From the IMG/VR virus record IMGVR_UViG_3300028553_000021: a DNA stretch of 64,000 bases; one strand, given 5' to 3'. Numbering within the stretch: position 1 is the stretch's first letter; each line of letters begins with the position of its first letter. A program made the position numbers and the translations under genes. This document shows positions 19,301 through 47,556 of this stretch, piece by piece. The notes under the pieces were generated by a model. That model ran no database searches, had not been told where the DNA came from, and saw only the letters and a list, made by a program, of their open reading frames with translations. The DNA comes from an uncultured virus (IMG/VR IMGVR_UViG_3300028553_000021). Taxonomy: Duplodnaviria > Heunggongvirae > Uroviricota > Caudoviricetes.

Positions 19301-22300
19301 AAGCTCGTCAATCTAGGGCTATCCAACGTCAAAGCGAGGTTGAAGAAAGCCAAGGCTGCCGGTCGTAATCTCGAAGAGACTTTTACTAACATTGATAAAT
19401 TAGTTTTCACAAATAACTATCAAGGGGGTGGGGGCATTTACGCCGATCCTCGTAATCCGTTTGAAGCTGGGACTCTCTACATTAACCCAGACCAATTAAC
19501 GAGAGTACTCATGTCGGATCTCACGCTAAACCCAGCCGACTTTTTTGCGTCTATGCTGGAGGAAGAAGTCATTCACGCCAACCACGGTAAGGCGATGGTT
19601 CGGGCTTTTGTCCAGACTTTTCCGCCCGAGAAAAACAAAGAAGTGTACGCTTCCCCAGCGGCTACTCTGGAAGCATATATTAAATTTTACGACGCACAGA
19701 ACGCAGAGATTGAGAATAGCCTGACAATCGATCAAATTAAAAATGTTGTTGGTAAGTATGCTCAGTCCTTGGGTATAGACCTAGCGGGAAAAACTAAAGA
19801 ACAAATTGTTCAAGAGTTCAACGTGGGTCGTCCGGGAAGACTAGCAGAAGAATACTTGCGGGCTTTAATTCAAGGCCGACAGCTTGGGTCTATAACAGAA
19901 GAGCAAGTTCGGGGTTACACGACTCGGCCTATTTTAAGAATCTTGGGGGCGTTGCGTAATTGGTTTAGAGACTTGGTTGGCAAGGGAGTACAGAAAAGAA
20001 AAACTTTCGTAGATAGACAGCACGACGCTATTTTATCGGTTCTTCTTAGCTCATCCCCGACCGAACGTTTAGCGGCTCAGGGTGAGATTAACACCGCGAT
20101 ACCTGGGCGCATCCTTGCGTCTAGCATTGATCCGTTCGCCGAAGAACTCAACAGACTTAATAAAAACACAAACGCCAAGCTCGAAGCAGAGATTCAAAAA
20201 GAGTTTGGGCCTAGGAATAAAGAGACAGGCGAGGGAGGTCTTTGGAGAAGGACTATCATTGGGAGACTGAAGAGGTCATTCCCAGCAGTAGACCCAACTG
20301 AGGTAGAGAGCTTGGTATACGCTTCTATTCCGGAAGCGATGGGTTCCTTTGACGAAGACAAGGGAGCTAAGTTTCCAACTTATTTATACGGAATTGCTCA
20401 GAAAAAAATCCTGAGAGAAAAATATAAAACCCTTAAAAGAAGAACTAGAGAAGTGGCGAGTTTTCAGGCTCCAGGTTTTTACAATATTCCGTTGAGTTTA
20501 AAGTCGGCGCAAGAAGCAGATATTGAAGCGGAAGCAGAAGCTCCAATTGAATCCGAAGATCTAACTCCTGAGCAACGTGCCGAAAAACTCTTGGCTAGAG
20601 CGCCCAGCCTTGAAAAAGAACTTGACGCACAAGAAAAAGTTTCTCCGGTTTTGGAAGAAAAAGCAGTTGCTGCGGCCTATGAGCCAGAAACTGGCAGAAC
20701 AAATTTGGCGGAAGAAGGACAGGAACTTGAAGAACTTACCCTAGCCGATGGCGAGGCGATAAGCTCTTTGGACGCAGTATCCGCTGAAAAACGCACAGCT
20801 TACCTTGAGGCCCAGCTAGGTGAAGCGGGCAAGTTGCTGGCCACCGCGGCCAAAGCACTGGGGTTAACTAAGATTGAAACAGAAGTCTTGGCGTACGCCG
20901 CGGACCCAGATGGTTCTATTCTAACGCGAAAAGAAATCACCGATAAATACGGATTAACCAACGACCAGTTTACGAACATGAGGGATGACGTTCTTACTCG
21001 CATGCGCGAACAGCTTGGCCGTGCCGGTGTGACAAGGACGGCTGATGTTCTGGCTTCCTCCATCGATCCAACCCGAAGTCAAGCGTTAGCTCGCGCCAAG
21101 ACTACCCTGCCGGCGGACGTTGCTGCTGAGATCGATACTATCATTCAAGATCCTTTTACCGATGCGGGACTTACTAAATTAGCTAAAGACTTTGTTAAAG
21201 CCAACTCGCCTAACGGCGATGTCATGCATGCCAAGCGTATTCTGGATGGGCGACCGAATATGAAAGAGAGAGAAAGGTTAGCCGTCTTAGGCGTAATTGG
21301 GGTTACTCTAAGAAAACGAGTATCTAAAGTAAACGAAGAAATTAAAAAGAAAGGCAGGAGCCCAGAAAGATTGGCGCTTAAAAACTACTTAGACACAAAC
21401 CTCAGAGAAGTTTTTATTAAGAGCCAGCAAATCAGTTCAGAATTTGGTCAAAACTTAAGGTCAGCCCGCACAAACAACGCTCTGTACCTCCCTTACCATT
21501 GGGAGGGACTTTATACTGGGCCTATAGGTAGCCAACAAGAAGAACTTCTTCGAACCAAACAAGAAGTGATAAAGGCCAGAGCTGAAATAGAAAGACTTTT
21601 GGACATCATTAGTGGGGACGCTGTCGATGGGATTTACATTAAACCGCCCGAATCTCCAGATGACGATGCCAAAATTGGGGTCGGAGACAAACCAATTAAA
21701 ACCCCTCTTCCAGAGGGAGAAAACTTTTACGAACTTTTATCTCTATTCGGAGACATGAGCCCTACAGAGGGGGAAACTTTTAGCGACTACCTGCAAAGGC
21801 TTGGGGTTAACTATGATGATGTAGTTTCAAACTTAGAAGGCATGAAGGCAGCCTCGGTTTCGCCCGCAGCGGTTACAAAAATTCTACCGGAGGGTTTAAA
21901 AAACTTATCTGCTAAAGAGGCGATCCGCAAGTTGGTTGCTATCGATAAAAACTTTTTTGGTAAGCTGGTCGCACTCCGAATTAAATCAGGTGGCGGGACG
22001 ACTGAAGCTCAGGTTGCGGAAGGGCTGGATCGCAAAAAGTTGGACGTGAAAGACAGGCCAGCAGAACTTCAGACCGTATTTGATTTCTTCGGTTCGACGG
22101 AGAGTACGAAACCAACCTCGGAAGCCCCAATTGAAAAAGACATCCTACCCCCGTTGGTTCGTTTGGCTAAATACGCAGCTGATACAATTACAGATCGGGT
22201 CATGCGCTCGCTCGGGGCAGATAAAGCAAAGATGGAAAAGGGGTCCTTTGAAAAGTTGGAGCGTCAAGTTCGAGCTCTAGTTAATGCTCAATTCAGACAA

Positions 22301-30730: not shown

Positions 30731-30984
30731 TTGGTTTTTGACCAAGTAAAGAACGGAGGAATCCTCTTGTCGAGGAACTCGCAATGTTCTTTTGGAGACA
30801 TCTTCTTGTGTTTCTTTATGAACTCCTTATCGTTCTTGTTGTAGTCCAAGATGAAGGCCATCTTGTGTATCCGAAGGCAAGTGAAGAAGTTATCCAAGTC
30901 GTGCTTCTCCATCAGCTCGAAGACTTCTTTTCGGAACTCTCTGATCAGTTTATCTTTTCTGTCTAGTTTCTTTATCTGTTTCAT
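30727..30984 (-). CDS. Hypothetical basic protein
   Basis: GAAAGGA RBS. Confidence 0.55.
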   Translation of the reverse strand: MKQIKKLDRKDKLIREFRKEVFELMEKHDLDNFFTCLRIHKMAFILDYNKNDKEFIKKHKKMSPKEHCEFLDKRIPPFFTWSKTK

Positions 30985-31586
30985 GCTGTTATCCTTTCTG
31001 TTTGTAAGGCTCCCCATTGGGAAGCCATTGCTTTTGCTATACCGTCGAAGGTCTTTGCTCTGTTCTTCTGTCTGTCCTTACCGCCCTTGTTGAACCAGTT
31101 GCCAGGAATCTTGCTACTCTGCGGGTTCTTAACAACCCGTGTCGATCTCAATGGTGGTAGACCCTTGAGCCATAGGCACGTTCGCTTCTGCACGGGATGC
31201 CCGAACTCGTAGGGTTGAATAACTTGGGTGTTGGGTAGCAGGGCGAAGATTTTGGATGGCGTAGGATTCTCGATGGCAATCCTAGGAATGTCGGCATTCC
31301 ATAGTGTCATAAAGAACGCACGTCCTTCCATGCCCTGCTTAAATCTAGCCTTGTTCAGCTTGCCCTTTGGATACAGGAACCTAGCTCCTGCATTGGACAA
31401 GTAGGTGCAAGGGGGATGGGCAATCATTAAGTCCCATCCGTCGTCAAGCACATCTCTCACGTCCCCTTGGTAGTGGGGGCCGAGGGCATCCGTGGGTAAG
31501 ATGTCACAGCTCATAGCCTCGTGGCCTTGAGCAATGAAAGCATCACGGACTGTGCCGGAGTACTCGCATGCTACTAATACTTTCAT
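30981..31586 (-). CDS. DNA cytosine methyltransferase-like protein, paralogue 2
   Basis: 'VLVACEYSG', 'HPPCTYL' (motif IV) and 'IENP' (motif VI). Confidence 0.75.
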   Translation of the reverse strand: MKVLVACEYSGTVRDAFIAQGHEAMSCDILPTDALGPHYQGDVRDVLDDGWDLMIAHPPCTYLSNAGARFLYPKGKLNKARFKQGMEGRAFFMTLWNADIPRIAIENPTPSKIFALLPNTQVIQPYEFGHPVQKRTCLWLKGLPPLRSTRVVKNPQSSKIPGNWFNKGGKDRQKNRAKTFDGIAKAMASQWGALQTERITA

Positions 31587-31603
31587 ATGTTATCCTTTCT
31601 TTG

Positions 31604-32212
31604 TTAAGCTTCGACCAGTTCGAGAGAACCCCATTGTTTGGCCATAGCCTTGGCGATTCCCTTGAAGGTTGTACTGCGAACCTTCCAGCGATCTTTCCCC
31701 GGCGCTTGCCAATGAATCCGTTGCTGGACTGCGATGGGCAACGCATCAGTCTCGTCTTTGAGATCGGTAGTTGGCTTGAGCTTTGGCAATCCCTTGAGCC
31801 ACAAGCCAGTACCTTTCTTCTCTTTGTGGCCGAACATCCAAGGCTGGATGATCTGGTCGGGGCCACGGCCAACGATATCCTTGGCGTACTTGTGCATGAT
31901 AGGATTCTCGACGGCGATGTGGGGGATGTCGGCCTCAAGCAACTGCTTGAAGAACTCAGCACCAGCCCGCATCTTGTCGAACCTATCCTGCTGTTTGTAT
32001 AGCCAGCACACACCCGAGTTACACAGGTAGGTGCAGGGTGGATGGGCGACCATCAAGTCCCATCCATCATTGATGATATCGAACACACTACCTTGGTAGT
32101 GCGGTCCTTTCTTATCGGTCGGGAGAAGATCGCACGACATAGCGTCGTGTCCTCTTGCGATGAACGCATCCCGAACCGTACCAGAATACTCGCAAGCGAT
32201 AAGTACTTTCAT
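31604..32212 (-). CDS. DNA cytosine methyltransferase-like protein, paralogue 1
   Basis: Same motifs (PPC, ENP). Confidence 0.75.
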   Translation of the reverse strand: MKVLIACEYSGTVRDAFIARGHDAMSCDLLPTDKKGPHYQGSVFDIINDGWDLMVAHPPCTYLCNSGVCWLYKQQDRFDKMRAGAEFFKQLLEADIPHIAVENPIMHKYAKDIVGRGPDQIIQPWMFGHKEKKGTGLWLKGLPKLKPTTDLKDETDALPIAVQQRIHWQAPGKDRWKVRSTTFKGIAKAMAKQWGSLELVEA

Positions 32213-33412: not shown

Positions 33413-34258
33413 TTATCGGTTAGCGAGGCTGGACAAGATGTTGCGGATACCCTCAAGGGCTTCCTCGATCTTGTCGTTGTTACTTACGGAGACGGAATCA
33501 CCGTCACCGTATTCATCTTCGTCATCGTACAGGTTTTCGTCGTTAGCAATGGTATTCCGAAGAGCACCATTGAATTCGTCGACCACCTCGTACTGACAGG
33601 TGCGAAGCTTCTGGCATTCGCAATCCGTCGGGACGCTGACGACATCGGCGGGGTTGATCTTGACGATCACGATCTTCTTGTCCCCACCACCGAAGTCTTG
33701 GGCATACTCCAACGAACCAGCGTGGAAGCCGTAAGAGCATCCATTGTTGGCGTCGTCGCATACCTTGCGTCGCTCCATCCGTAGGGTTGAGCCTACTCGG
33801 TTGGAGAACTTGCCCGTGTGATGATCAGTGTAGTCAGCACGGACGGACTTGTATGCCAAGAAGCACCCGTCTGGGGTGACTGGCATACTGCCGTGGGCAA
33901 GGAATGTGTACAGCTCGGTGCGGGCACGACGGCTGTCGTTCCGCTCCAAGTTCTCGAAGAACCGCAGCAACGGGTCGAGTGGCAATCCGTTGCGATGGCA
34001 TTCGAGGATACGCTGAACAAGTACGCCGTGTACTTCTTCGCCGTTGTACTTCACCGAGTTCTCGCCAACCTCAAACGCACCGCCAAGATACTTGGTCAAT
34101 GCGACTCGAGGGTTAAGCAAGTCTACAATCTCCGCCTCGGAAGCACCATCTCGGATTGCGTCCAAGACTGCGTTGTAGTTTCCGTGGGTGGAGGAGAGGG
34201 TGTACGATTGGCCATTGCTGACCACCGTGATACCCTCGGGTGTGATGATGTAGTTCAT
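33413..34258 (-). CDS. rIIB: RIIB-like protein
   Basis: 'TPDGCFLAYK', 'CSYGFHAGS', 'VKINPADVVSVP..KLRTCQYEV'; follows rIIA. Confidence 0.9.
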   Translation of the reverse strand: MNYIITPEGITVVSNGQSYTLSSTHGNYNAVLDAIRDGASEAEIVDLLNPRVALTKYLGGAFEVGENSVKYNGEEVHGVLVQRILECHRNGLPLDPLLRFFENLERNDSRRARTELYTFLAHGSMPVTPDGCFLAYKSVRADYTDHHTGKFSNRVGSTLRMERRKVCDDANNGCSYGFHAGSLEYAQDFGGGDKKIVIVKINPADVVSVPTDCECQKLRTCQYEVVDEFNGALRNTIANDENLYDDEDEYGDGDSVSVSNNDKIEEALEGIRNILSSLANR

Positions 34259-34280
34259 TGTCTATCTTTCCTTTCTTTGT

Positions 34281-36533
34281 TTATGGTTTCTGAATGATCC
34301 CCAAATAGGAGACCAAATCTTTCGTGGATGAAGCCTTATATTTCTTGAGCCACTCTGAATCACTGTGCCATTTCTCTCGCTGGAGACGAGTCCAACGAAC
34401 CATCGGCCAGCCTCGGAGCAAGACATCGGAGTGATGCTTGACTACGAGATCGTCGTCTGGTTTGAATGACTCGAGTGTCTTGCCAGTCATAAGCTCCTTC
34501 AAATCATAACTCTCGTGTTGCTGGATGAGATGAGCTAAGCTGATGACTTGGCTGGTGTACTTGAAGCCCAACAACTCAACCATTCTCTTGGCTGGGTGCT
34601 GGTCTGGAAGATTGGATTCTCGAATTGCTTTGGGCAAGTCGCCACTCTTCCAGTTGTCGGCGTCCAAGCAAGCATAAGCATCAAAGATGTTACGCTGTTC
34701 GGTATCGCACAAGTCAAACTCGAGCCGACGCCAGACCAGTTCGCCCAAGGCTTGATTGTCCTTGAACATGCGGGTCATAGCATCTCGGAGTCCAACCGCA
34801 AAGAGAACACCGTCCTCGGGTATCTCCTCGCCCTTCTTCTTGGCGAGTAGCCTGCCCTTGAACAACTTGGCTTGAGTCAACTCCTGCACCAGTTTCTTGA
34901 GGTTGCTGTTGCTGGTGCGACTGACACCTACTGGTTCGAACTTCTCAATCTCAATCCACCAATCATCTTCGGTGTACTCCCCATCGATTAGCTTCCAATG
35001 ATCAGACTGCTTGCTGGTATGTCTAGCCAAGTCCATATCCAACTCGAACACCTTACCCTTGGTGTGCTTGGCGTTCTTGTCGTAGGACTGAGCACCGCCG
35101 ACCGTATTGGAAGGAGGCTCGGGTAATGTGTTGTAATCCACATACTTGATCTTGGCTAGCTCCGTGTGGGTCTTGCACAGATCATCCCAATTCTTCTTGG
35201 TCGTGATGACATAGACAGTTGCGTTCTCCTTGATGTGATCGTTGGCATACGCATACTTGAGTCTGCCAGTACGGAAGTGTTTCTTGTCGGGGACAAGGAA
35301 CACTTGCACATATCGATTGACCATAATCGAGTGCGGCGATTCCTGGCGGAGTCTGTTCTTCCCCCAGTTACGCCACCCGCACATCGTCACGGACAGGTCG
35401 GGGTGTACAACATTCGACCCGTCGACTATGACCATCGGCAGTTGGATGACGCCGTCCACCTTCTGACCTTTCCATAGCACCTTGTTCTTGATCTTCTTGA
35501 GCAGGTTCTCCATTCCAGAATTGGAAGTGTAGTGCCGACTCTTGAAGATGTTGGATTCGACGCAAGCATCCCACCAAGTCGGTGCGTTCTGAATGCGTTG
35601 CTCAACGACCTGTGCCAAGCTGTCGATCACCTTCTTAACCTCGGCGGTCAATCGCTTGACGGTCATTGGCGTGTACATCAGAGCCTCACGACTCGGAGCA
35701 ACTTGCAGTCCCCCAACCTCGATCTCGAGGGTGATGCCCAGACTGCTGGCAACCGCCAGCTCATCGGGCAACTTGAAGGAGTTGAAGTTGATTGGATACT
35801 CGACATCGCCCATCACCACAAAAGAATTGGTATTCTCATTGGGGTCTGTAATCCGCCAGTTGTCCTCCATTAAGACGACAGCTTGCGGCACGTTGTTGAT
35901 GCGGAGATGTTCGTCGGGTGTTGCATTGCTCACCGTGGGTTTAACACGGAAGACATTGAACACTTCGACTGCGGTGCTTCTGAATCGGTCGATGTCGTTG
36001 GCCTTGACGGGCAACTTGACCTCGACGCCATTGGGTTCGTCCGTCTCGGACTCCTCCAAGATATCGAAGGCTGGCACACCGAACTCATCTTTGAAGCATA
36101 CCAACACCCACTTCCTACCACCCTTGATGCAGGTGATAGTCCATTGGTCGGTATAGGCTGCGGGTGCTTTGCACCCCAGCCCGAAGCCACCAGTATACTC
36201 ATTGCTGGTAGATTTGTATTCACCAGACGAGCCGTAGCTTGCCATCAGCTTGCCGAACTCGTCGATGTTTAAGCCTAGTCCCTCATCCTTGATAATGAAG
36301 GTCGGCCCAGAAGTGCTTGGAAATGTCACCTTGATTGGCGACTTGTTTCCGCTTGCCTTGTGGGACTCGTTGGCGTTCACGGACAGCTCTCTTATAACCG
36401 CCTTGATTGGGTCTGCATACAGACCCGACAAGATGCCCATTATGTGGGCTCGGTTTGCCAGATTGACTGTGAACTGTGCCCTCTTGCCCAGAGTCTTGGC
36501 CACAGGGTTGAACCTTGACTGCGTTGTGATCAT
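34281..36533 (-). CDS. rIIA: RIIA-like protein with N-terminal GHKL ATPase
   Basis: 'LYADPIKAVIRELSVNA', 'DEGLGL', 'GGFGLGCK', 'PSREAL'. Confidence 0.9.
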   Translation of the reverse strand: MITTQSRFNPVAKTLGKRAQFTVNLANRAHIMGILSGLYADPIKAVIRELSVNANESHKASGNKSPIKVTFPSTSGPTFIIKDEGLGLNIDEFGKLMASYGSSGEYKSTSNEYTGGFGLGCKAPAAYTDQWTITCIKGGRKWVLVCFKDEFGVPAFDILEESETDEPNGVEVKLPVKANDIDRFRSTAVEVFNVFRVKPTVSNATPDEHLRINNVPQAVVLMEDNWRITDPNENTNSFVVMGDVEYPINFNSFKLPDELAVASSLGITLEIEVGGLQVAPSREALMYTPMTVKRLTAEVKKVIDSLAQVVEQRIQNAPTWWDACVESNIFKSRHYTSNSGMENLLKKIKNKVLWKGQKVDGVIQLPMVIVDGSNVVHPDLSVTMCGWRNWGKNRLRQESPHSIMVNRYVQVFLVPDKKHFRTGRLKYAYANDHIKENATVYVITTKKNWDDLCKTHTELAKIKYVDYNTLPEPPSNTVGGAQSYDKNAKHTKGKVFELDMDLARHTSKQSDHWKLIDGEYTEDDWWIEIEKFEPVGVSRTSNSNLKKLVQELTQAKLFKGRLLAKKKGEEIPEDGVLFAVGLRDAMTRMFKDNQALGELVWRRLEFDLCDTEQRNIFDAYACLDADNWKSGDLPKAIRESNLPDQHPAKRMVELLGFKYTSQVISLAHLIQQHESYDLKELMTGKTLESFKPDDDLVVKHHSDVLLRGWPMVRWTRLQREKWHSDSEWLKKYKASSTKDLVSYLGIIQKP

Positions 36534-39419: not shown

Positions 39420-39935
39420 GTGCCCAAGAAGTTGGATATTGATTGGAAGGCCATAGAAGGTTTATACACTATGGGAATGAAACCCGATGCAATAGCCCAC
39501 ACATATAACCTTAACATTCAATCACTTCGAACAAGGATTAAAAGGGGTCAATGGAAGGTTCAAAAGGATGCACTACGGGCTCAAAAAGAGGTCATAGTGA
39601 CCCAAGATAGGGCTCAACTGGTTGCCAATGCTGGCACCGCCTATCAACAGAGGCTGATAAAGCATGTCGAAGCTGGGATGGGCGTCCTCGATGACAATCT
39701 CCCCACCACCCGCCCCGAAGTCTCCCAACACTTCGATGCGTTGGGTAAAGTGGATAAGATTGCGAGTCGGGCGTATGGATTAGAATCCACGGTGAACGGT
39801 GGACACTCCACAACCCTCAATCTTAACCTTTTGCGGGTGGATGGTCAACTTGACCCCATTCACCTAAAACCTTGCACCGCAGAGACTTCCACCGAAAAGC
39901 CACAAGTGATTGATATTCAGTCAGTTGCTACTTGA
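39420..39935 (+). CDS. Terminase small subunit-like HTH protein
   Basis: 'IDWKAIEGLYTMG...IAHTYNL..QSLRTRIKRGQW' N-terminal HTH typical of TerS; helical middle. Confidence 0.6.
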   Translation: MPKKLDIDWKAIEGLYTMGMKPDAIAHTYNLNIQSLRTRIKRGQWKVQKDALRAQKEVIVTQDRAQLVANAGTAYQQRLIKHVEAGMGVLDDNLPTTRPEVSQHFDALGKVDKIASRAYGLESTVNGGHSTTLNLNLLRVDGQLDPIHLKPCTAETSTEKPQVIDIQSVAT

Positions 39936-40153: not shown

Positions 40154-40232
40154 ACTACCTGCTTTCTCCGCCTGTTAGCGGTGGCGAGGCAGGTGATGAG
40201 CCTGCCCCGCTGACCGATAACCCTTGGTAGGA

Positions 40233-40673
40233 TTAGCTATTGAGTTCGATAGCGGGTGCCTGATTGGCCTTAATGATGGCCAGCACCTGATCGAGCTTGT
40301 CTTCAGGCAAGGATGCAAGGGCTTCCAGCATCTTGCTCTGATCGTTCTTCTTCTCCACCTTTTCCCTGGGGATTTTCGGAACGGAGAAGCGGATAACGCC
40401 CGACTTGAGCGAACCATCCGCCTTGCTTGTAGTCTCCACAATCTTCTCCAATACCAATCCGCTAGCGCGGAACTTCTCCAGCCCTGCAACTGCCTTTACA
40501 TTCTCGGCGTTGCAATGGCGAGAGAACTCGGCACGATGCTCGGGTGAACCATAGACCAAGCCGTAGTGTTCAGAGTAACCTCTGAAATCCAATACCTTCT
40601 CGGTATTGGCGGTTGATGTTTTGTATTCACGGACGGACACCGCCCGATTGTTCTGTATGTTGATTAGTTTCAT
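40233..40673 (-). CDS. Hypothetical protein, first gene of the early operon
   Basis: TAAGGAG RBS. Confidence 0.7.
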   Translation of the reverse strand: MKLINIQNNRAVSVREYKTSTANTEKVLDFRGYSEHYGLVYGSPEHRAEFSRHCNAENVKAVAGLEKFRASGLVLEKIVETTSKADGSLKSGVIRFSVPKIPREKVEKKNDQSKMLEALASLPEDKLDQVLAIIKANQAPAIELNS

Positions 40674-40689
40674 TTTCTATTCTCCTTAT

Positions 40690-41260
40690 TATGGGGTTGA
40701 TTCTGCCCACCCTATCGGGCGAACAGATGACAACCCCCCACGAGTTAAGGCCTTCCCCGTTAGGGGTAAGAATCCTGCTCGCAAGGGGTTGTGGAGACTA
40801 CCGAATCTTTGGAAGATATTATGCTGGCCAAGCACCAAAGACTCTATTTGAATCGCATCCCGTTGGATGATCTTACTTGCCCACGCACCCTAGGTGACTT
40901 ATGCACACGGACGCTCCTACTCTCGACGAGGGAAAAGCCTAGGCCATCGCAAATGATGAGCGATGCCCTGCCCGCTTGATCGTGGGGCAATTTGGCCGTG
41001 GTAGCGGTTGCCCGCTTGATTAGGCTCAAATCCTGAAGGCGTGAGAGCGAATTCTTGCAAGATGGGAGGGAGCACCCTTGTAGCATCTACTGAACCCTTG
41101 CGGGTAGCATCGGTGGCCGTTTGCTTTAGAGAGCGAGTTGCCTCGCCCATCCTATTCACCCATCGGAGGGAATCGCCTTGAAGGCACATTTCACCTAGTC
41201 ACCTAGGTCATTCCTACTTCAAGCAGTCCAACCTCACGCTGATTTTCCAAAGAACTGAAA
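40690..41260 (-). ncRNA. Candidate large structured RNA/leader
   Basis: Several GCAA-capped hairpins on the - strand; 11-bp long-range stem 40889-40899/41197-41207; no convincing ORF. Confidence 0.55.
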
Positions 41261-41299
41261 GATTGTGGGCAATAAGTTGAGGGAGATTCTTTGCCTAGT

Positions 41300-41800
41300 G
41301 TGCCTGGGTAAGTTGTTGATTATTAAGGACTTACAAGGATAGTTAAGTGTAAGCCGTTGAAGGTCAAGGGGTTAGAGGGACTCCCTATCTCCACACCCCC
41401 GCTGGCGACCAGGAAGCTATGATATATGGATGTGAAAAATTTAATTTATTTTTATCCCCTTTGGGCTAAAAACCCACCCTATTACACCCAAAACCGTAAA
41501 AACAAGCCCCAGGGTGGATTATCTTGATCCACCCTAATATAATCAACCCACCCCCTAAGTCGTTGATTTTCTTCTGTAGTGGTGTATATGGTGGATTATA
41601 TTTATAATATATAGTAGTGTATAATAAAATATAAGTATGGGCACAGCCCCATTTGTTATATAGGTAGCTCTTTCAAAAAGGCCCTTTTAATCCACCATAT
41701 ACACCACGTCTCAAGTAAATCAACGACTTACGTCGAAAAACCTAATCCACCCTCTTTTTCTTAATCCACCCCTTTTTGACCCTTGACTATCAAGGACTTA
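41300..41800. promoter_or_regulatory. Origin/terminus-like element with inverted repeats and IHF-consensus sites
   Basis: Perfect 20-bp inverted repeat around an AT-rich core; WATCAA-N4-TTR sites; TAATCCACC repeats. Confidence 0.6.
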
Positions 41801-42006
41801 CGTTTTCGTCTTTTCGCCTTTGTAACTTCCTTAGGCTCAACAGCTTTCCAGATTTTGCAGTCTACATCCAGCTTTACGGACTCCTCCATGCAGAACCTAT
41901 ATATCTTCCATGACCAAGGATCCCATCCGAACCATGGAGTCCTAGATGTAAGGTCTCCGATCCAATAGTATAGATATGACACTGCGAACTGGAATCTCTT
42001 GATCAC
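41761..42006 (-). CDS. Small Trp-rich hypothetical protein
   Basis: 'YLYYWIGD...YRFCM..SVKLD...IWK' phage-type motif. Confidence 0.6.
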   Translation of the reverse strand: MIKRFQFAVSYLYYWIGDLTSRTPWFGWDPWSWKIYRFCMEESVKLDVDCKIWKAVEPKEVTKAKRRKRKSLIVKGQKGVD

Positions 42007-42025
42007 TTTTTCTTACATACTCCTA

Positions 42026-42480
42026 TCTGCATGCAATTCAAAGGCTTTAGCTTTGTTTTGCAAATTAGAAGGAAAACAGATGCTAGGTTTTTTACGCCTA
42101 GACCTAGGATTGAAGGGCACAGACCGATTCATACTTGGTTAATAGCCTCCATTATCTGTCACTTTTTGACAGCTCCTCGCAAATTAGAAGGTGTTGTCAC
42201 AAATTCTACATAGTTTTTGTGACGCTCGACATGCATACTTTTTCGCAAAAAGGCGACATATAACAGACCGATGTGCATAGATTGTCGGTTTACAGCGACA
42301 TGACACAGACCGATTCATACTTGGTTCACTGCCTCCATTCCAAACCGCTCGGTTCATATTGAAGGCTGGTTGAATAAGGAAGAGTTTCCAGTCCATATGT
42401 AAGTCTGGCTGGTATATGTTTTCATTTGCCCCGCACACTCCTGATCATTGACCCCTATATACCATTTTGGTACGAATCGT
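42026..42480. repeat. Mosaic of direct repeats and short palindromes
   Basis: 36-bp repeat at 42118/42304, 13-bp repeat at 42060/42179, at least 7 palindromes. Confidence 0.75.
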
Positions 42481-42529
42481 CTAGTGACATCCGCCCTCCC
42501 AGCCTTCCTAATTCTACTTGGCTGCTGGG

Positions 42530-43366
42530 TTATCGCTTTAGTAATGACCCGATCCAAGCCTTAACGCACTTGTCTATCTCACCGTACTTGCCCGGCTCAG
42601 TAAACCCCGAGCCTACCGAGTCGATCAGGTAGATCCCAAGGCAGTTCCTGATATCCCTGCTCTTGTGGATGAAGGAGCTGAGCTCCACCACCCTCCCCAT
42701 TATGTCCTCCGTGCTATATGAAAAACTCGGAAGCAGACATTTTGTAATCGCAGCGAACACTCCGGGAGCCATCGTGTCGATATCGTTTTTGAACTCCTTC
42801 CACTCCACGAGAGTTTGGATTGTAGAGCCCTTGGTGTAGAGCGTACCTATTGTCTGTGCCCCGATTGCTTTGATCAATTCGGCGAGGTCGTTGGCGTTGG
42901 GGTTCTGGCAAGAGAAGTAATCGTAGTCTATGGATAGAATCCATTTGTTGTCGCTAAACACCGGCGTGGATAAATCCGTCACCACCGTCAGGGAAAGGTC
43001 CTTCGCATCCCCCAACGTATTCCTCGGTGCATAATCTTCCTCTAAAAAGTAGAAGGGCACGGAGAGCGATGAGCCCAGTTTGATTCCCTGACCCGTCTTG
43101 CCAATCGAGAAGTTGTAAACCCCGTCCATGAAATCCATCGAGCTACGATCCTTAATCCAAGTTACTCGGTCCACCAATCCTAGATCCACCATCTTCGATA
43201 TAAAGTTGCCGATGTCTAGGTATCCGTTGAACATGGCCAAGTCGGAGTGGGCATCCACGTTCACAATCTCGAACGGGCCCTGAAGTCCGTCGTCCAGAAC
43301 CTTCCAGAACAATTCGTCGTGTTCTTGGAGATGACACACCTTCGGGATAGAACCTGGGGTGGTCAC
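42530..43366 (-). CDS. UPF0489/arginase-deacetylase-fold protein
   Basis: 'EHDE', 'VNVDAHSDL', 'LDIGNFI', 'LSIDYDYFS' metal-binding motifs; GAGGAG RBS before GTG 43366. Confidence 0.65.
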   Translation of the reverse strand: MTTPGSIPKVCHLQEHDELFWKVLDDGLQGPFEIVNVDAHSDLAMFNGYLDIGNFISKMVDLGLVDRVTWIKDRSSMDFMDGVYNFSIGKTGQGIKLGSSLSVPFYFLEEDYAPRNTLGDAKDLSLTVVTDLSTPVFSDNKWILSIDYDYFSCQNPNANDLAELIKAIGAQTIGTLYTKGSTIQTLVEWKEFKNDIDTMAPGVFAAITKCLLPSFSYSTEDIMGRVVELSSFIHKSRDIRNCLGIYLIDSVGSGFTEPGKYGEIDKCVKAWIGSLLKR

Positions 43367-43370
43367 GTGA

Positions 43371-45509
43371 CTAGTACTCCTCACGAGCCAGACTGATCTT
43401 CCAGATTGTAGTACCACGTACAATCTTTCGTTTCAGCCTCTCGTCTGTTGATGAGAGGTTAGCCAACATTCTTCCAAGGGCTCGGGCCCCATGGATAAAC
43501 ATCTTCACGGAGTCGCGGAGACTCGCGTCGTTCTGAAAACCCAACAGCAGTTCCGTCGCCGTGCCCGACCATTCGGTTTCGTCTGGGTGATCCTTGGCAT
43601 ACTGCTTTAGGTATAGGTCCAAGAATTCCGAGAACTCATGGGAGCCGGACGATGATCTGGATTCCTGTAATAGTATCGGATGATGGTAGGATTTCACACC
43701 GTACCGTTCCGATCCTTTTGTTTCCTGCGGAGCATTCCAGCTTACCAGCCATGCGGCGAAGTGGGGGATCTCTTTGTTGAGAGTAGCCCCCAAATCCGCA
43801 TGACTTGGGAACTCGATGCCGTGATCTTTAAACTTAAACAAGCTGATCTTGTCGAGGATACTACCATCGGTGTGGGGAATCGCCTGAATGGATTCTGGAT
43901 CGTCGTTGAGCGTATCGATGATTCTCCCCATCCAATCCACGGTCTGCGCATCGTGGAACTTCCTGTGATACGCATGGCGAGTATTCGCTACACCCTTCTT
44001 GATCATCTGGCTGAACCGCTTGTGGGACTCCAGCGAGTTGGCGGAGGACGAGTCGTCGACGTTCCATACGGCTACTTCGAACAGCTCGGCGTTGAACGAC
44101 GAACCATTGACGAGGTAATCCGATGCGTCGCTACCTCCCCCCATGAGGCTGGCGACAATGCGGGAACCGAAGAGAGTTTTACCTTTCCCGACAGGTCCCG
44201 CTATAAAGACCGCTTGTCCGGGTACGAGACGACCTTCAAGGGCAGAGCAGTAGAATCTCTTGAGCCACGCCATCAGGTAGATGAGGGAGTCATGCGGGTC
44301 TAGAGCCCTGTCTAGGAAGTTGGCTATCCATGGAAAGTTCTCTCCCCAAGCGTGGTTACCCTCCGCCGGCTGTACAAGCCGTAGGCGAGAGATGTTGAGC
44401 ACCCTACGCCCATTCTGGATCAGGACCTCTCTTGGGTCATAAAGACACGGTACAGGGGCATCTATGATGCGAGAATCGCGTATACGGCGCATTGCCTCAT
44501 CCGCTTGGGATAGAGTACCCCGTAGATCGGGGGCTCCGGATAGCCCAAAAGAGCCTATGATATCCTGCTTGGCTACCCCAGACTCGGTAGACCTCCACTT
44601 ACCTTCTAGGTCCCGACGCCAGTAATACTTGCCGTCAAACCAGAAACTGGAGATGGCACCACCGTACTGATCCTCTTGGAACTCCCGTACCCAGTTGGAC
44701 CCGAATAGGTCTGCCCAGTTGTAGAAGCTACGCTCCTGCGAGAAGGCAACCATGCCCGTCTCGGTGACGATTGTCGCGGTTGGGTTTGAGTTGGCTGTAG
44801 CTTCGGGGCTCCAGAACGCTGGGCCGCGAGCTCCGACCTCAAACGGTCCCATCCACTTTCCTGGGTAGGTCGCTTGCAGTCTCTCGAATACTTTATCGAG
44901 TGGGATTGCCGCGTCACCTTCGCCACGATATTTGCGGGCTCGCTCTACTGCGATCCCCAAAAGATTATGGATTGCATTAACTTTGATCGGTGTTTCGCTG
45001 AAGGAGATCGCCGGTGGCATCCAGCAGTAATATTGTTCGGGACGATTGATGTTGTCGTCGAGTCCGGGGAAAAGGTTTTTCGCATTGGTTTCTTTTATTA
45101 GTAGCCCGAGAAATTCTTTCATCACCCCAGGGAGCAACGAGATTGGTTCCTCGAACATCCAGATGACGCGGCAGTTCCCGCTGACAGTGCGGTGCGCGAA
45201 CATGGGTTTAAAACCCGTGCGTGTTCTACGTCCTAGCCCGTCGGTGATTTCTTCACGGGTCACGACTGCATCATAGTCGGCGATCAACCCGTGCATCTTC
45301 CACGGAGCATTTGTCTTGTTCACCCGACCGTGAGGATTGATTCCCTCGTAGGCGGAAACGAAGTGACCTTCGGTCGTGCTTAACGACACCCAGTCTTTGA
45401 ATGCATCTTTGCCTTTTGGAAACTCTGGCCAAGTCTTGATCTCCCAAGGTTTGACTGGTGTGATGTTTCCGCTCGATAGGTTAGGGAGTGAGAAAAGAGT
45501 TGTTTTCAT
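43371..45509 (-). CDS. Primase-helicase (primase-like N-terminus, SF3/DUF5906-type NTPase)
   Basis: 'ADYD' and 'TVSGNCRVIW' primase-like motifs; Walker A 'GPVGKGKT'. Confidence 0.8.
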   Translation of the reverse strand: MKTTLFSLPNLSSGNITPVKPWEIKTWPEFPKGKDAFKDWVSLSTTEGHFVSAYEGINPHGRVNKTNAPWKMHGLIADYDAVVTREEITDGLGRRTRTGFKPMFAHRTVSGNCRVIWMFEEPISLLPGVMKEFLGLLIKETNAKNLFPGLDDNINRPEQYYCWMPPAISFSETPIKVNAIHNLLGIAVERARKYRGEGDAAIPLDKVFERLQATYPGKWMGPFEVGARGPAFWSPEATANSNPTATIVTETGMVAFSQERSFYNWADLFGSNWVREFQEDQYGGAISSFWFDGKYYWRRDLEGKWRSTESGVAKQDIIGSFGLSGAPDLRGTLSQADEAMRRIRDSRIIDAPVPCLYDPREVLIQNGRRVLNISRLRLVQPAEGNHAWGENFPWIANFLDRALDPHDSLIYLMAWLKRFYCSALEGRLVPGQAVFIAGPVGKGKTLFGSRIVASLMGGGSDASDYLVNGSSFNAELFEVAVWNVDDSSSANSLESHKRFSQMIKKGVANTRHAYHRKFHDAQTVDWMGRIIDTLNDDPESIQAIPHTDGSILDKISLFKFKDHGIEFPSHADLGATLNKEIPHFAAWLVSWNAPQETKGSERYGVKSYHHPILLQESRSSSGSHEFSEFLDLYLKQYAKDHPDETEWSGTATELLLGFQNDASLRDSVKMFIHGARALGRMLANLSSTDERLKRKIVRGTTIWKISLAREEY

Positions 45510-47269
45510 TTCTCGTAACACTCCGCTTCTTTGGATTCGCTACCAATGGGACAGCCCGGTAGCCATTCTGGTGTGGTACTCATAATGTGTTCTACGTCCT
45601 TACATTTCACGTCCTTATCGACTTCAAGGATAACTTCGTCGTGGACGTGAAACAGAACACGAAGCCCTTGATTTTCGAGGCGCTGGACACATTCTGCGAA
45701 TACATCCCTCGCCGTTGCCTGAACTAGATTCTCACACAGCCGTCCGCCGTAAAGAGGATATTTTGGTCCCCCCAATTCGAGCGAAGCTCTCCAGTCTGGT
45801 TTGCCATGTTTACCCATTTGGGGCGTGACATCCCAATACTTTTGTGCCCGACCCGATGGAAGTTCAACGTGATAGTCTTCGCCTTTGGATTCCCGAAGCC
45901 CTCGCTCCAGCTTGCTCCATAGCTCCACCACTTTGAAATTTTTACGGCGGTAGTCATCTACCAAGTCCCTGCTCCTAGCCTCGGTGATTGTGAGGCCAGC
46001 CATGAGCTTGGCGATGAGAACGAACTTCTTGGAACCGCAACCGTAGCCCAATCCCAAGACCTGTGCTTTGGCTAGGGCATAGAGATCCTTGGATTTCTTG
46101 AAGGTACCCTTCTCACCCTTCCACATCCCCGTCGAGATGGCGAAGGCTTCGTAGATGCCGTAGCCGTTCCTTACAGCCCCAAGGAGAGCCGTATTGCCAG
46201 CGAGCCATGCCAGTACCCTAGGTTCGATCTGGGACAGGTCTGAGATGATGAACTTCTTCCCCGCCCTAGGGATGAGACAAGCCCGTAGGTCTACCCCGAA
46301 GCATGGGTCCCTTGGTAGGTTCTGGAGGTTAAACTTGCTGTCCCCCGACCACCTACCGGTATGGGCACCAAAGTACTTTAGCCCGAAAGGCATAGTCCCG
46401 TCAGGACGCCGGCGACGATGGAGCATGTGCATTTTCTGCAATAGCATGTTGGCCTTACGCCAGTCCCGCATAGCCCCGACCCATGGGAACTTCTCGCCAT
46501 AGGTTTCCTCCCATAGCTGACAGCCAGGATCGTCTTCGGAAGTAGATGGTGGTACCTCGATGCCAGCCTCACGGCAAGCCTTGGCTAGCCCAGTCACGGA
46601 TAGTACGTCGCTGGTGTAGTCCCCGTCGGTCTTCCATGGCATGTGCTCGATTGCCTTGATGCGAATCCAATCGAGGGCGTTCAGCCCCTTGTCGACCATC
46701 TCGGTGTTCACATTGATGCCATGCCACCCAGCCTCGATGGTGTGCTTTGATAAAAATTTTTCCACAGCAGACATGCGATTACCGAAAGTCTCGTAGAGAT
46801 CCAAGCAATGCTGAGCATCCTTCGCTGCGTAGAGCTTAAACTCCGTACCCTGCTCGGTATCCTTGACCTCGTTCCAAGTCTTGCCCTTCATAGCCGAGCG
46901 AGGATCTTTCGACATGTCTACTCCGAGGAGTTGCTTAGAAGCCCCAGCTAAATTGCGAGGAGCGCCCATGTATGCAGATAAGTTGGCGGTGCAGAAGAAT
47001 TCCCTTGGCCTAGCTTTGGTGATCCCCAGCTCGTGTAGACGCTCAACACAAGATCCGTCGAAAGCGTAGTTGTGCGCCACCCAGCGACCCCCCTCGATTT
47101 TGTCCCAAGGGGCCATTTTCGGGGGGCCTACAAAGTCCACCCCCGGCCCCTTGATTGCCACCATATAAATGTCCGCGTTTTGGTGGCGCAGGTAATGCCA
47201 CGTCCCTAGCGTAGTGATAGACGTTTCCTTATCGTAGTACGTTTCAAAATCTATTGCGTATGTGTTCAT
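45506..47269 (-). CDS. polA: Family A DNA polymerase with 3'-5' exonuclease
   Basis: 'IDFET', 'HNYAFD', 'TGRWSG', 'NLQNLPR', 'DLSQIEPR', 'KAQVLGLGYG', 'HVHDEV'. Confidence 0.95.
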   Translation of the reverse strand: MNTYAIDFETYYDKETSITTLGTWHYLRHQNADIYMVAIKGPGVDFVGPPKMAPWDKIEGGRWVAHNYAFDGSCVERLHELGITKARPREFFCTANLSAYMGAPRNLAGASKQLLGVDMSKDPRSAMKGKTWNEVKDTEQGTEFKLYAAKDAQHCLDLYETFGNRMSAVEKFLSKHTIEAGWHGINVNTEMVDKGLNALDWIRIKAIEHMPWKTDGDYTSDVLSVTGLAKACREAGIEVPPSTSEDDPGCQLWEETYGEKFPWVGAMRDWRKANMLLQKMHMLHRRRRPDGTMPFGLKYFGAHTGRWSGDSKFNLQNLPRDPCFGVDLRACLIPRAGKKFIISDLSQIEPRVLAWLAGNTALLGAVRNGYGIYEAFAISTGMWKGEKGTFKKSKDLYALAKAQVLGLGYGCGSKKFVLIAKLMAGLTITEARSRDLVDDYRRKNFKVVELWSKLERGLRESKGEDYHVELPSGRAQKYWDVTPQMGKHGKPDWRASLELGGPKYPLYGGRLCENLVQATARDVFAECVQRLENQGLRVLFHVHDEVILEVDKDVKCKDVEHIMSTTPEWLPGCPIGSESKEAECYEK

Positions 47270-47556
47270 TTTATTTTGATGATCGTAATATGATCTTCTC
47301 CAATGATCGCTTTTGTCATCACCTGTTCTATGAAGACCATGACTCCCAGACAAGCAGAAAGACCTTTCGTGTCTTCCCTGTCTGCTTTCTCTATTACTTT
47401 CCCTATCGCAACATGCGCCTTCACAAAATTGTCGATGCTCTCGATCGGGCCAAATTGCTGAACAATCTGCTTTGTGGCCTGAGCGGTCTCCTCGAGATTT
47501 GGGTCAGGGATTACTATGAGTTCTTTGGAGAGTTGGTCTGCTGATTTGTGGTACAT
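47266..47556 (-). CDS. Hypothetical protein
   Basis: Coupled to polA. Confidence 0.6.
   Translation of the reverse strand: MYHKSADQLSKELIVIPDPNLEETAQATKQIVQQFGPIESIDNFVKAHVAIGKVIEKADREDTKGLSACLGVMVFIEQVMTKAIIGEDHITIIKIK

What the first reader, a model, noticed from the sequence alone, without database searches (positions are those of the whole stretch)
40690..41260. Large GNRA-tetraloop-rich RNA at the head of the early operon
Seen on the - strand: GCGAG-GCAA-CTCGC, ACCC-GCAA-GGGT, GCGG-GCAA-CCGC, CCCC-TAAC-GGGG, CATCC-AACG-GGATG and CATCGC..GCGATG hairpins. An 11-bp perfect stem (40889-40899 with 41197-41207) closes a ~320-nt domain, ATCAAGCGGGCA occurs twice, and ACAACCCC/GGGGTTGT forms a second domain. 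Tetraloop polarity matches the direction of early transcription. Inference: an undescribed large ncRNA or antiterminator/decoy RNA. It lacks tRNA or tmRNA ends.
Basis: partly seen in the sequence, partly recalled or inferred. Interest (0 to 1): 0.72.

Follow-up and report, generated by a model that had tools for sequence, protein, structure and literature searches.

The report
New large structured phage leader RNA
An uncultured lake-water phage carries a roughly 450-base, intricately folded RNA of no known family just after a promoter and ahead of a block of early genes, and close relatives carry different folded RNAs at the same spot.

Summary
The region (minus strand) folds far better than shuffles (z -5.47, against -2.30 for the other strand). 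It matches none of 4227 Rfam families and no tRNA or tmRNA.

Seven metagenomic variants (85-96% identical) plus the window's own sequence support a 138-pair structure. 17 pairs show compensatory changes, against 6.3±1.8 in shuffles (0 of 500 reach 17) and 0-2 in slid controls. The short ORFs inside are not conserved.

Contigs from four lake or freshwater metatranscriptome libraries cover just this core (40801-41243).

The core starts about 6 nt after a conserved promoter-like motif. Two hairpins conserved in all relatives follow it, then the ribosome-binding site of the first gene of an operon with rIIA/rIIB and DNA methyltransferase genes.

The 11-bp long-range stem is broken in 2 of 8 variants, and the repeated 12-mer is not conserved.

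Near-identical phages carry unrelated but equally structured RNA bodies at this site, like swapped cassettes.

Verdict: a real, undescribed large structured leader RNA. Its function is unknown. My best guess is a stable RNA released from the leader; cis regulation is the main rival.

The parts
41262..41290 (-). Promoter-like motif: -35-like AGAATC (41290-41285), a 17-nt spacer, and -10-like CACAAT (41267-41262). The predicted start is A at 41256.
   Evidence: All 22 distinct relatives, whatever RNA body follows, have a CATAAT/CATAAG/CATTAC-type hexamer 5-6 nt before the (A/G)GUUC start, and most have a GAATC/GGAAC motif about 17 nt upstream. The motif occurs once in the window. It is inferred and not mapped.
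40801..41256 (-). Type-A RNA core, about 456 nt. It holds about 20 predicted helices, including four hairpins with GNRA-type loops (41208-41193, 41148-41131, 41105-41094, 41016-41003).
   Evidence: RNAalifold on 8 distinct sequences gives 138 pairs. 98.9% of cells are paired. 17 pairs have changes on both sides, against 6.3±1.8 in shuffles (0 of 500 reach 17) and 0-2 in slid controls. RNA-library contigs cover 40801-41243.
41247..41253 (-). 5' strand (UCUUUGG) of the predicted closing helix P1. Its partner is CCAAAGA at 40812-40806.
   Evidence: Predicted. It is invariant in all 8 sequences, so there is no evidence for or against it (helix 1). The RNA contigs stop at 41243 and do not cover this strand.
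40806..40812 (-). 3' strand (CCAAAGA) of the predicted closing helix P1.
   Evidence: As for the 5' strand.
40729..40794 (-). Long terminal hairpin: ACAACCCC...GGGGGUUGU outer stem with an inner CCCC-UAAC-GGGG hairpin.
   Evidence: The outer stem is conserved in 20 sequences of all body types. 6 of its 12 pairs have compensatory changes and 89.2% of cells are paired.
40703..40728 (-). Hairpin next to the ribosome-binding site: CUGUUCGCCC-GAUA-GGGUGGGCAG.
   Evidence: It is conserved in all 20 sequences. 4 of 12 pairs have compensatory changes and 96.7% of cells are paired. One U-G pair is present in all 20, which marks this as the sense strand. The element is unique in the window.
40671..40687 (-). 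Shine-Dalgarno AAGGAG (40687-40682) and the ATG (40673-40671) of the first gene of the operon (146 aa, no known family).
   Evidence: Homologues follow the leader in all relatives. There is no Pfam, PHROG or Atlas assignment.
41500..41537 (-). Terminator-like hairpin with a U-run, which would end the upstream replication-gene transcript.
   Evidence: Consensus scan only: 11-bp stem, then GGCUUGUUUU. The hairpin is built from two inverted copies of the GGGTGGAT repeat.
41470..41780 (.). AT-rich array of TAATCCACC / GGTGGATTA repeats in both orientations, with a 43-nt inverted repeat (41556-41598 / 41688-41730). It is context, not part of the RNA.
   Evidence: It is conserved in relatives. It could be a replication origin or a regulator-binding array; this was not tested.

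Best explanation
This is a previously undescribed large structured RNA that forms the body of the 5' leader of a phage operon.

Supported by calls: on the minus strand, a core of about 456 nt (41256-40801) folds into about 20 helices with several GNRA-capped hairpins, and 10 of those helices covary. Two hairpins conserved in every relative follow it, then the ribosome-binding site of a 146-aa gene. Downstream lie rIIA/rIIB-like and DNA methyltransferase genes. Contigs from RNA libraries contain the core.

Inferred: transcription starts at about 41256 from a host-type promoter conserved in all relatives. The upstream replication operon ends at a terminator-like hairpin about 250 nt earlier.

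My committed guess (about 35-40% likely): the folded body is cut from the mRNA in or near the conserved long hairpin, which is a double-strand-specific RNase site by analogy. It then persists as a stable RNA that acts on its own, for instance as a decoy or scaffold, and is not a mere untranslated region. The reason is that closely related phages exchange this body as a cassette for unrelated but equally structured RNAs, while the promoter and the terminal hairpins stay fixed. That pattern fits a variable partner better than conserved host machinery.
For: Folding: z is -5.47 on the minus strand and -2.30 on the plus strand.

Covariation in 8 distinct type-A sequences: 138 pairs, 98.9% of 1104 cells paired. 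17 pairs changed on both sides, against 6.3±1.8 in shuffles (0 of 500 reach 17) and 0-2 in slid controls. 10 of 20 helices carry at least one such pair.

Loop identity is kept as GNRA-type across variants: GCAA/GUAA/GAAA, GUGA/GCGA, and GCAA/GAAA/UCAC.

Not coding: both internal ORFs lose their start or gain stops and frameshifts in variants. Variable columns by codon position are 21/27/21 and 23/22/25.

No known family: 0 Rfam hits at gathering score in the window and in 13 relatives' loci. No hit at E up to 10 overlaps the region.

RNA libraries: contigs from 4 of 4 metatranscriptome runs laid cover 40801-41243. One whole 444-nt contig has depth 43. One 496-nt contig (depth 57) runs 53 nt further into the next hairpin. 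Contigs of two studies stop at 41243 with no loose end, while relatives' DNA continues; this is a weak hint of a 5' end.

Promoter-like motif plus (A/G)GUUC start in 22 of 22 distinct relatives.

Terminal hairpins conserved in 20 sequences of all types: 92.9% paired against 80.0% shuffled, and 63 double-change cells against 21.0±3.9 (0 of 500).

The core is 95% identical in L037, whose adjacent protein is only 44% identical.

Cassette exchange: L037 (type A) and L032 (another body) are 94-98% identical on both sides, with the break at the RNA body. Other bodies are also structured, with sense-strand z from -3.1 to -7.3 in 5 of 5 tested. One of them (4 sequences) has 37 of 152 pairs with compensatory changes, against 14.2±2.6 (0 of 500).
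Against: Nothing shows processing, a discrete 3' end, or any action in trans. No intrinsic terminator follows the core, so it is at least first made as part of the mRNA.

Contigs cannot give strand, ends or abundance, and DNA in an RNA library cannot be excluded.

The closing helix P1 never varies, and the RNA contigs do not cover its 5' strand.

Several 3'-half helices (14, 16, 18) have no compensatory support, and an alternative pairing (CCCACG/CGUGGG) is equally invariant.

The type-A set is shallow: 85-96% identity, one phage clade, 8 distinct sequences. The structure was derived from the same alignment it was scored on.

The promoter is a motif, not a mapped start. The host is unknown.
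Confidence: 0.5

Rival explanations
1. It is a purely cis-acting leader. The folded RNA stays on the mRNA and controls the operon behind it. It could make RNA polymerase resistant to terminators over the roughly 12-kb operon (as put-type or EAR-type RNAs do), protect the 5' end from decay, or set translation of the first gene through the conserved hairpin next to the ribosome-binding site.
For: It sits directly after a promoter-like motif and is contiguous with the first gene, with no terminator between. One RNA contig runs from the core into the next hairpin. The two terminal hairpins and their distance to the Shine-Dalgarno are conserved in all 20 sequences. GGGUUG of the long hairpin can also pair with CAACCC just before the Shine-Dalgarno, giving a possible switch; this is seen in single-sequence folds only.
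Against: Known polymerase-modifying leader RNAs are about 65-120 nt (recalled), not 350-690 nt. An RNA that acts on conserved host polymerase or ribosomes would be expected to keep its sequence or fold. Here near-identical phages carry bodies with no detectable similarity. The parts conserved in all relatives are the terminal hairpins, not the large body, so cis control may reside there and leave the body unexplained.
Confidence: 0.3
2. It is a replication-linked transcript. The RNA is made next to the phage origin (the repeat array 41470-41780) and activates or primes DNA synthesis, as the roughly 550-nt folded RNA II of ColE1 plasmids does for a family-A polymerase.
For: An AT-rich array of about nine TAATCCACC repeats with a 43-nt inverted repeat lies 200-500 nt upstream. 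It sits just after the primase-helicase and family-A DNA polymerase genes. The size, heavy folding and divergence between close relatives resemble RNA II (recalled).
Against: Transcription runs away from the repeat array. No promoter-like site for an antisense regulator was found on the plus strand within 40690-41260. That the repeats are an origin is itself untested. The leader is joined to a normal ribosome-binding site and gene.
Confidence: 0.08
3. It is a mobile RNA element, such as an ORF-less self-splicing intron or similar ribozyme, inserted in the leader. That would explain why the body comes and goes between conserved flanks.
For: The exchange boundaries are clean, at the RNA start and before the terminal hairpins. 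The predicted pairing of the 5' and 3' ends and the GNRA loops resemble ribozyme architecture.
Against: There is no match to group I or group II intron models, or to any ribozyme family, even at E up to 10. No relative has an empty site; 24 of 24 loci with enough upstream sequence carry some body. There are no flanking exons of a split gene. An RNA contig is continuous from the core into the downstream hairpin.
Confidence: 0.04
4. It is not a functional RNA. The region is either a DNA-level element or a chance fold in a spacer.
For: P1 and several helices never vary. The data come from one clade only.
Against: The covariation exceeds both controls. G-U pairs are conserved on this strand only. 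The z-scores are strand-asymmetric. The core is 85-96% conserved while the adjacent protein is 43-47% identical.
Confidence: 0.03

Closest known systems
GOLLD and ROOL (large ornate RNAs carried by phages and prophages; Rfam families)
   Same: Several hundred nucleotides, many helices, GNRA-type loops, carried by phages, function unknown. GOLLD was also first seen in lake metagenomes (abstract and search listing of PMC12286853; the rest is recalled).
   Different: There is no covariance-model match at gathering score or at E up to 10. No tRNA genes are nearby. It sits as a promoter-proximal leader joined to a gene. It is smaller, at about 456 nt. Self-assembly was not tested.
Early-region leader of coliphage T7, cut off by RNase III before the first gene (recalled from Dunn and Studier; not read here)
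   Same: The layout is similar: early promoter, a leader of several hundred nt, a long irregular hairpin, then the first early (anti-defence) gene.
   Different: The T7 leader is not known as a conserved ornate fold. Cleavage here is only inferred from a conserved helix of about 12 outer pairs plus an inner stem. The host and its RNases are unknown.
put RNAs of phage HK022 and other cis-acting antitermination leader RNAs (recalled)
   Same: It lies immediately downstream of an early promoter, at the head of a long operon.
   Different: put is two stem-loops of about 65-70 nt with a conserved fold. Here the bodies are 350-690 nt and are exchanged between unrelated sequences.
ColE1 RNA II (recalled)
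   Same: About 550 nt, heavily folded, divergent between close relatives, and paired with a family-A polymerase.
   Different: No antisense-promoter signal. It is transcribed away from the repeat array and continues into a translated operon.
Candidate structured RNAs from IMG/VR (Fremin et al. 2023, PMC10690425)
   Same: They come from the same kind of source data (viral contigs) and were found by comparative methods.
   Different: Their candidates are 29-151 nt (passages read). Two motifs of this RNA were not found in the 6 supplementary files that could be searched, but the two large alignment files and one further file could not be searched. A sub-hairpin could therefore be listed there.

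Membership tests
Any Rfam 15 family (including GOLLD, ROOL, OLE, HEARO, raiA, RNase P, tmRNA, group I/II introns, riboswitches) | Covariance-model score at or above the family's gathering score | tested here: not met
   0 matches in the 64-kb window and 0 in 13 relatives' loci, 65,933 bases. At E up to 10 in 40200-42600 there were 7 weak matches, none inside 40690-41260.
tRNA / tmRNA | Cloverleaf or tRNA-like ends found by ARAGORN | tested here: not met
   0 genes in the window.
Self-splicing intron (group I or II) | Interrupts a gene or has an intron-less allele (empty site) | tested here: not met
   Both flanks are non-coding. All 24 loci with enough upstream DNA carry some body. No Rfam intron hit.
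Protein-coding gene | An open frame kept in relatives, with changes concentrated at third codon positions | tested here: not met
   The 90-aa and 80-aa ORFs lose their start or gain stops and frameshifts in variants. Variable columns are 21/27/21 and 23/22/25 by codon position. No Pfam hit.
Structured RNA (generic) | Compensatory base changes above controls | tested here: met
   17 of 138 pairs, against 6.3±1.8 in shuffles (0 of 500) and 0-2 in slid controls.
Structured RNA (generic) | Present as RNA | tested here: inconclusive
   Contigs of 4 of 4 RNA libraries laid cover 40801-41243. However, contigs give no strand, and DNA carry-over cannot be excluded.
put-type / EAR-type antitermination leader | Small conserved fold (about 65-120 nt) directly after the promoter | tested here: not met
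   The position is met. Size and conservation are not: bodies are 353-692 nt and are unrelated between close relatives. The family's dimensions are recalled, not from a call.
put-type / EAR-type antitermination leader | Makes polymerase read through terminators | not testable with these tools
   This needs reporter or in vitro transcription assays.
RNase III-processed early leader (T7 type) | Long double-stranded hairpin between the leader and the first gene | tested here: met
   The outer stem of 12 pairs is conserved with 6 compensatory pairs in 20 sequences.
RNase III-processed early leader (T7 type) | Cleavage at that hairpin | not testable with these tools
   Contig ends are not RNA ends.
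ColE1 RNA II-type primer | Antisense regulator RNA over the 5' end, and an origin at the 3' end | tested here: inconclusive
   No promoter-like site on the plus strand inside the region (consensus scan only). The origin position is unknown.

The most novel reading that the evidence does not exclude
A clade of lake phages keeps one fixed 'socket' at the head of its early anti-defence operon: a promoter plus two terminal hairpins. The phages swap whole, mutually unrelated ornate RNAs of 350-690 nt into it. These RNAs would be stable, self-contained molecules whose variety reflects an arms race. Each body would bind or mimic a different host or rival-phage factor (an RNA-based anti-defence decoy or immunity determinant), or self-assemble as ROOL and GOLLD do. 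That would make this the first known exchangeable cassette system made of large structured RNAs and not of proteins.
Probability: 0.15. Interest if true: 0.9.

Novelty: new variant of a known kind. Interest (0 to 1): 0.7.

Why it matters
Large, intricately folded bacterial and phage RNAs are rare, and each known class (RNase P, group I/II introns, OLE, GOLLD, ROOL) has proved informative. Here there are at least two new covariation-supported RNAs, one of about 450 nt and one of about 650 nt, and several more candidates. They all occupy one defined genetic position in an uncultured freshwater phage clade. The clean replacement of one folded body by another between near-identical genomes is unusual for RNA. 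It offers a natural experiment, with the same promoter, the same downstream genes and a different RNA, for asking what such RNAs do. If the function is anti-defence or self-assembly, it would add an RNA layer to phage-host conflict. If the RNA is only a leader, it is still one of the largest structured leaders described in a phage.

Tried and rejected
- DNA search of the gap against 50,697 phage records: no match.
- tblastn of the primase-helicase: no match. The terminase gave only two hits at 25-31% identity. There is therefore no cultured relative and no host.
- My first collection pattern was mistyped and found nothing. The corrected one found only the window's twin and L007. A pattern for the hairpin next to the ribosome-binding site found 2 viral contigs. 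It also found 3 bacterial contigs that share only the pattern itself, about what chance predicts by my own estimate, so these were rejected.
- nhmmer profiles of every body type against more distant phage loci L012-L019: no hit.
- The type-A profile against the other bodies: no hit. The log shows nothing passing the first filter, so this is a weak negative.
- A covariance model of the 51-nt P3/P3a sub-domain found only the window's own copy (78 bits) in 226,642 bases, and nothing in the other bodies. The resemblances I saw by eye between bodies (a GGAAUGA motif beside a GNRA hairpin, and CAAGUAAG) are therefore not supported as homology.
- Pfam, PHROGs and the protein atlas gave nothing for the flanking 146-aa and 81-aa ORFs.
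- Earlier-findings look-ups returned nothing.
- Supplements of PMC10690425: motifs were absent from the 6 searchable files, but the large alignment files were not searchable.
- RNA runs: no contig lay on 40200-40800 or 41244-42000. The downstream gene of the expressed variant is also too divergent to be laid, so the leader-to-mRNA ratio is unknown.
- The boxA-like strings I noticed (CGCUCUCA, GCUCUCUAAAGCAA) rest on a recalled consensus and vary in L039. I did not pursue them.

Full report
**Setting.** The window is nearly all of a 65.8-kb viral record. Late genes run on the plus strand: terminase at 54358, virion proteins, and a 2903-aa ORF. A long minus-strand arm carries the replication genes: resolvase, helicase, exonuclease, family-A DNA polymerase 45506-47353 and primase-helicase 43371-45521. 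After a gap, the minus strand continues with a run of small ORFs, rIIA-like (34281-36533) and rIIB-like (33413-34258) genes, a gp88-family gene and two DNA methyltransferase paralogues. No cultured relative was found. The finding lies in a gap of about 1.09 kb without long ORFs, between an 81-aa ORF (41761-42006) and a 146-aa ORF (40233-40673) that has a strong AAGGAG ribosome-binding site.

**The observation.**
- The 571-nt stretch folds at -228.9 kcal/mol against -193.3±6.5 for 100 dinucleotide shuffles (z -5.47; no shuffle as good). The opposite strand gives z -2.30.
- Four GNRA-capped hairpins with stems of at least 4 bp lie here, against a background of 0.455 per 571 nt. Only the sliding windows that overlap this region reach four.
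- ARAGORN finds nothing.
- Rfam 15 has no match at gathering score in the window. None of the 7 weak matches at E up to 10 in 40200-42600 falls inside the region.

**Relatives.**
- A search with the primase-helicase gave 17 viral loci. Among these, only the window's twin and L007 carry the same RNA (88% identity). L005/L006 and L009 share the flanks but have other sequence in between.
- The downstream proteins of these loci are homologous at 27-47% identity.
- An alignment of those proteins found 25 metagenome loci. Ten of the 25 carry the type-A core at 85.4-100% identity. They form eight distinct sequences, one of which is identical to the window.
- The core is far better conserved than the gene behind it. 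In L037 the core is 95% identical in nucleotides, while the protein is 44% identical in amino acids.

**Structure.** RNAalifold on the eight distinct cores predicts 138 pairs in 20 helices.
- 98.9% of 1104 cells form standard pairs.
- 17 pairs change on both sides, against 6.3±1.8 when partners are shuffled (0 of 500 reach 17) and 0-2 when partners are slid by 1-3 columns.
- Ten helices carry at least one such pair. Four never vary, including the helix P1 that would join the 5' end (41253-41247) to 40812-40806. Four vary on one side only. Two depart only by mispairs.
- The 3' half is therefore less certain. An alternative pairing (CCCACG/CGUGGG, GCGGGC/GUCCGU) is equally invariant.
- Loops stay GNRA-like as they change: GCAA/GUAA/GAAA, GUGA/GCGA, GCAA/GAAA/UCAC. 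In L038, one whole hairpin (GCGG-GCAA-CCGC) is replaced by another hairpin.

It is perfect in six of eight sequences. It has no compensatory change, and 5 of its 11 pairs are broken in L039 and/or L044. The same bases form two local hairpins that do covary: ACCUAG-GUGA-CUAGGU, and GUGC...UCAC. I reject it as a conserved domain closure.

**Not coding.** The 90-aa and 80-aa ORFs inside the core lose their start codon or gain stops and frameshifts in the variants. Variable columns are spread evenly over codon positions (21/27/21 and 23/22/25).

**Start of the RNA.** In all 22 distinct relatives, whatever body follows, a CATAAT/CATAAG/CATTAC-type hexamer sits 5-6 nt before an (A/G)GUUC start. The window has CACAAT at 41267-41262. 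Most relatives also have a GAATC/GGAAC motif about 17 nt further upstream; the window has AGAATC at 41290-41285. The combined motif occurs once in the window. About 250 nt upstream there is a terminator-like hairpin with a U-run (41537-41500). I infer a separate transcription unit starting near 41256. This is a motif argument, not a mapped start.

**End of the leader.** Both are kept in 20 sequences of every body type. 92.9% of cells are paired against 80.0±1.1% in shuffles, and 63 cells have changes on both sides against 21.0±3.9 (0 of 500). Conserved U-G and G-U pairs (one U-G in all 20) mark the minus strand as the sense strand. No U-run follows either hairpin, so transcription should continue into the operon.

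**RNA evidence.** Six metatranscriptome runs hold 14-16% of the sampled words. I laid four of them on 40200-42000 at 85% likeness or more.
- All four gave contigs, and all contigs lie within 40801-41243.
- One 444-nt contig is the core and nothing else (depth 43).
- One 496-nt contig (depth 57) ends at 41243 and runs 53 nt past 40801 into a sequence that matches the L037-type long hairpin.
- Both differ from the window at 22 positions.
- Contigs of two studies stopping at 41243 with no loose end, while relatives' DNA continues, is a weak hint of a 5' end near there. That position is 4 nt short of P1's 5' strand.
- Contigs give no strand, ends or levels, and DNA in an RNA library cannot be excluded.

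**Cassettes.** The locus is mosaic.
- L037 (type A) and L032 are 94-98% identical up to about 10 nt after the RNA start and again from the terminal hairpin. The body between them is unrelated and of different length.
- Lengths from start to ribosome-binding site range from 353 to 692 nt.
- By BLAST and by eye I group the other bodies into about four kinds. This grouping is approximate.
- Five of five tested bodies fold well on the sense strand (z -3.1 to -7.3, 25 shuffles each). Four of the five fold better on the sense strand than on the antisense strand; L026 is the exception.
- One kind (L042, L043, L045, L030) has 152 predicted pairs. 37 have compensatory changes, against 14.2±2.6 (0 of 500) and 3-5 in slid controls.
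- None of the relatives' loci matches Rfam.
- I could not show that the bodies are homologous. A type-A profile and a covariance model of one sub-domain find nothing in them.
- More distant phage clades show no trace of any body.

**How it may work.**
- Supported by calls: a large, covarying, strand-specific fold that is present in RNA libraries. It lies between a conserved promoter-like motif and conserved terminal hairpins, at the head of an operon with rII and methyltransferase genes.
- Inferred: the start site and the operon boundary.
- Guess 1 (about 35-40%): the body is released at the long hairpin and acts as a stable RNA. The body, not its frame, is what close relatives exchange, which suggests a variable partner.
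- Guess 2 (about 30%): a purely cis role, such as antitermination, stability or translation control. This fits the position and the conserved hairpins, but not the size or the exchange of unrelated bodies.
- Guess 3 (about 8%): a replication role, suggested by the repeat array upstream.
- Less likely: a mobile ribozyme, or a non-functional fold.

**Comparison with known systems.** The RNA is not a member of any Rfam family. In kind it is nearest to the large ornate phage RNAs GOLLD and ROOL. In layout it is nearest to promoter-proximal phage leaders (the T7 early leader, put RNAs; both recalled). A published catalogue of viral structured-RNA candidates reaches only 151 nt. Its largest supplements could not be searched.

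Noticed in passing
window 41470-41780: An AT-rich array of about nine TAATCCACC / GGTGGATTA repeats in both orientations, a 43-nt inverted repeat (41556-41598 / 41688-41730, 88% complementary) and a recurring AAGTYGTTGATT motif. The array lies just after the replication genes and is conserved in relatives. It may be a replication origin or a regulator-binding array.
   Followed up: partly
window 41761-42006 (-): The 81-aa GTG ORF upstream overlaps two of the repeats and has no family hit. It may not be a gene, in which case the non-coding gap is longer than 1.09 kb.
   Followed up: no
window 40729-40739 and 40692-40698 (-): GGGGUUG, the 3' strand of the long hairpin, can also pair with CAACCCC just before the Shine-Dalgarno, enclosing the small hairpin. 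Single-sequence folds of the window and of L006 choose this pairing, and most but not all body types keep the complementarity. It could be a switch.
   Followed up: partly
L030:2042-2625: This leader looks like a hybrid. Its 5' half aligns with the L042/L043/L045 kind, and its 3' half carries motifs of the L024-L026 kind. That fits recombination inside the bodies.
   Followed up: partly
window 30981-32212 (-): Two adjacent paralogous DNA methyltransferase-like genes (201 and 202 aa, same PHROG family) lie downstream of the rIIA/rIIB-like genes 33413-36533. The operon behind the RNA looks like an anti-defence or host-takeover module.
   Followed up: no
window 39420-39935 (+): A 171-aa ORF on the plus strand lies inside the minus-strand operon. 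It has no Pfam or PHROG hit. It could be a real opposite-strand gene or a chance ORF.
   Followed up: no
window 41051-41056 (-) and three CCUAGG sites in the core: An invariant self-complementary UUGCAA sits in an internal loop, and the palindrome CCUAGG occurs three times in the core. Self-complementary loops could allow RNA-RNA dimer contacts. This is seen by eye only.
   Followed up: no
window 16352-25063 (+): A 2903-aa ORF with a weak internal-virion-protein match. It is typical of podovirus-like phages that eject large proteins.
   Followed up: no
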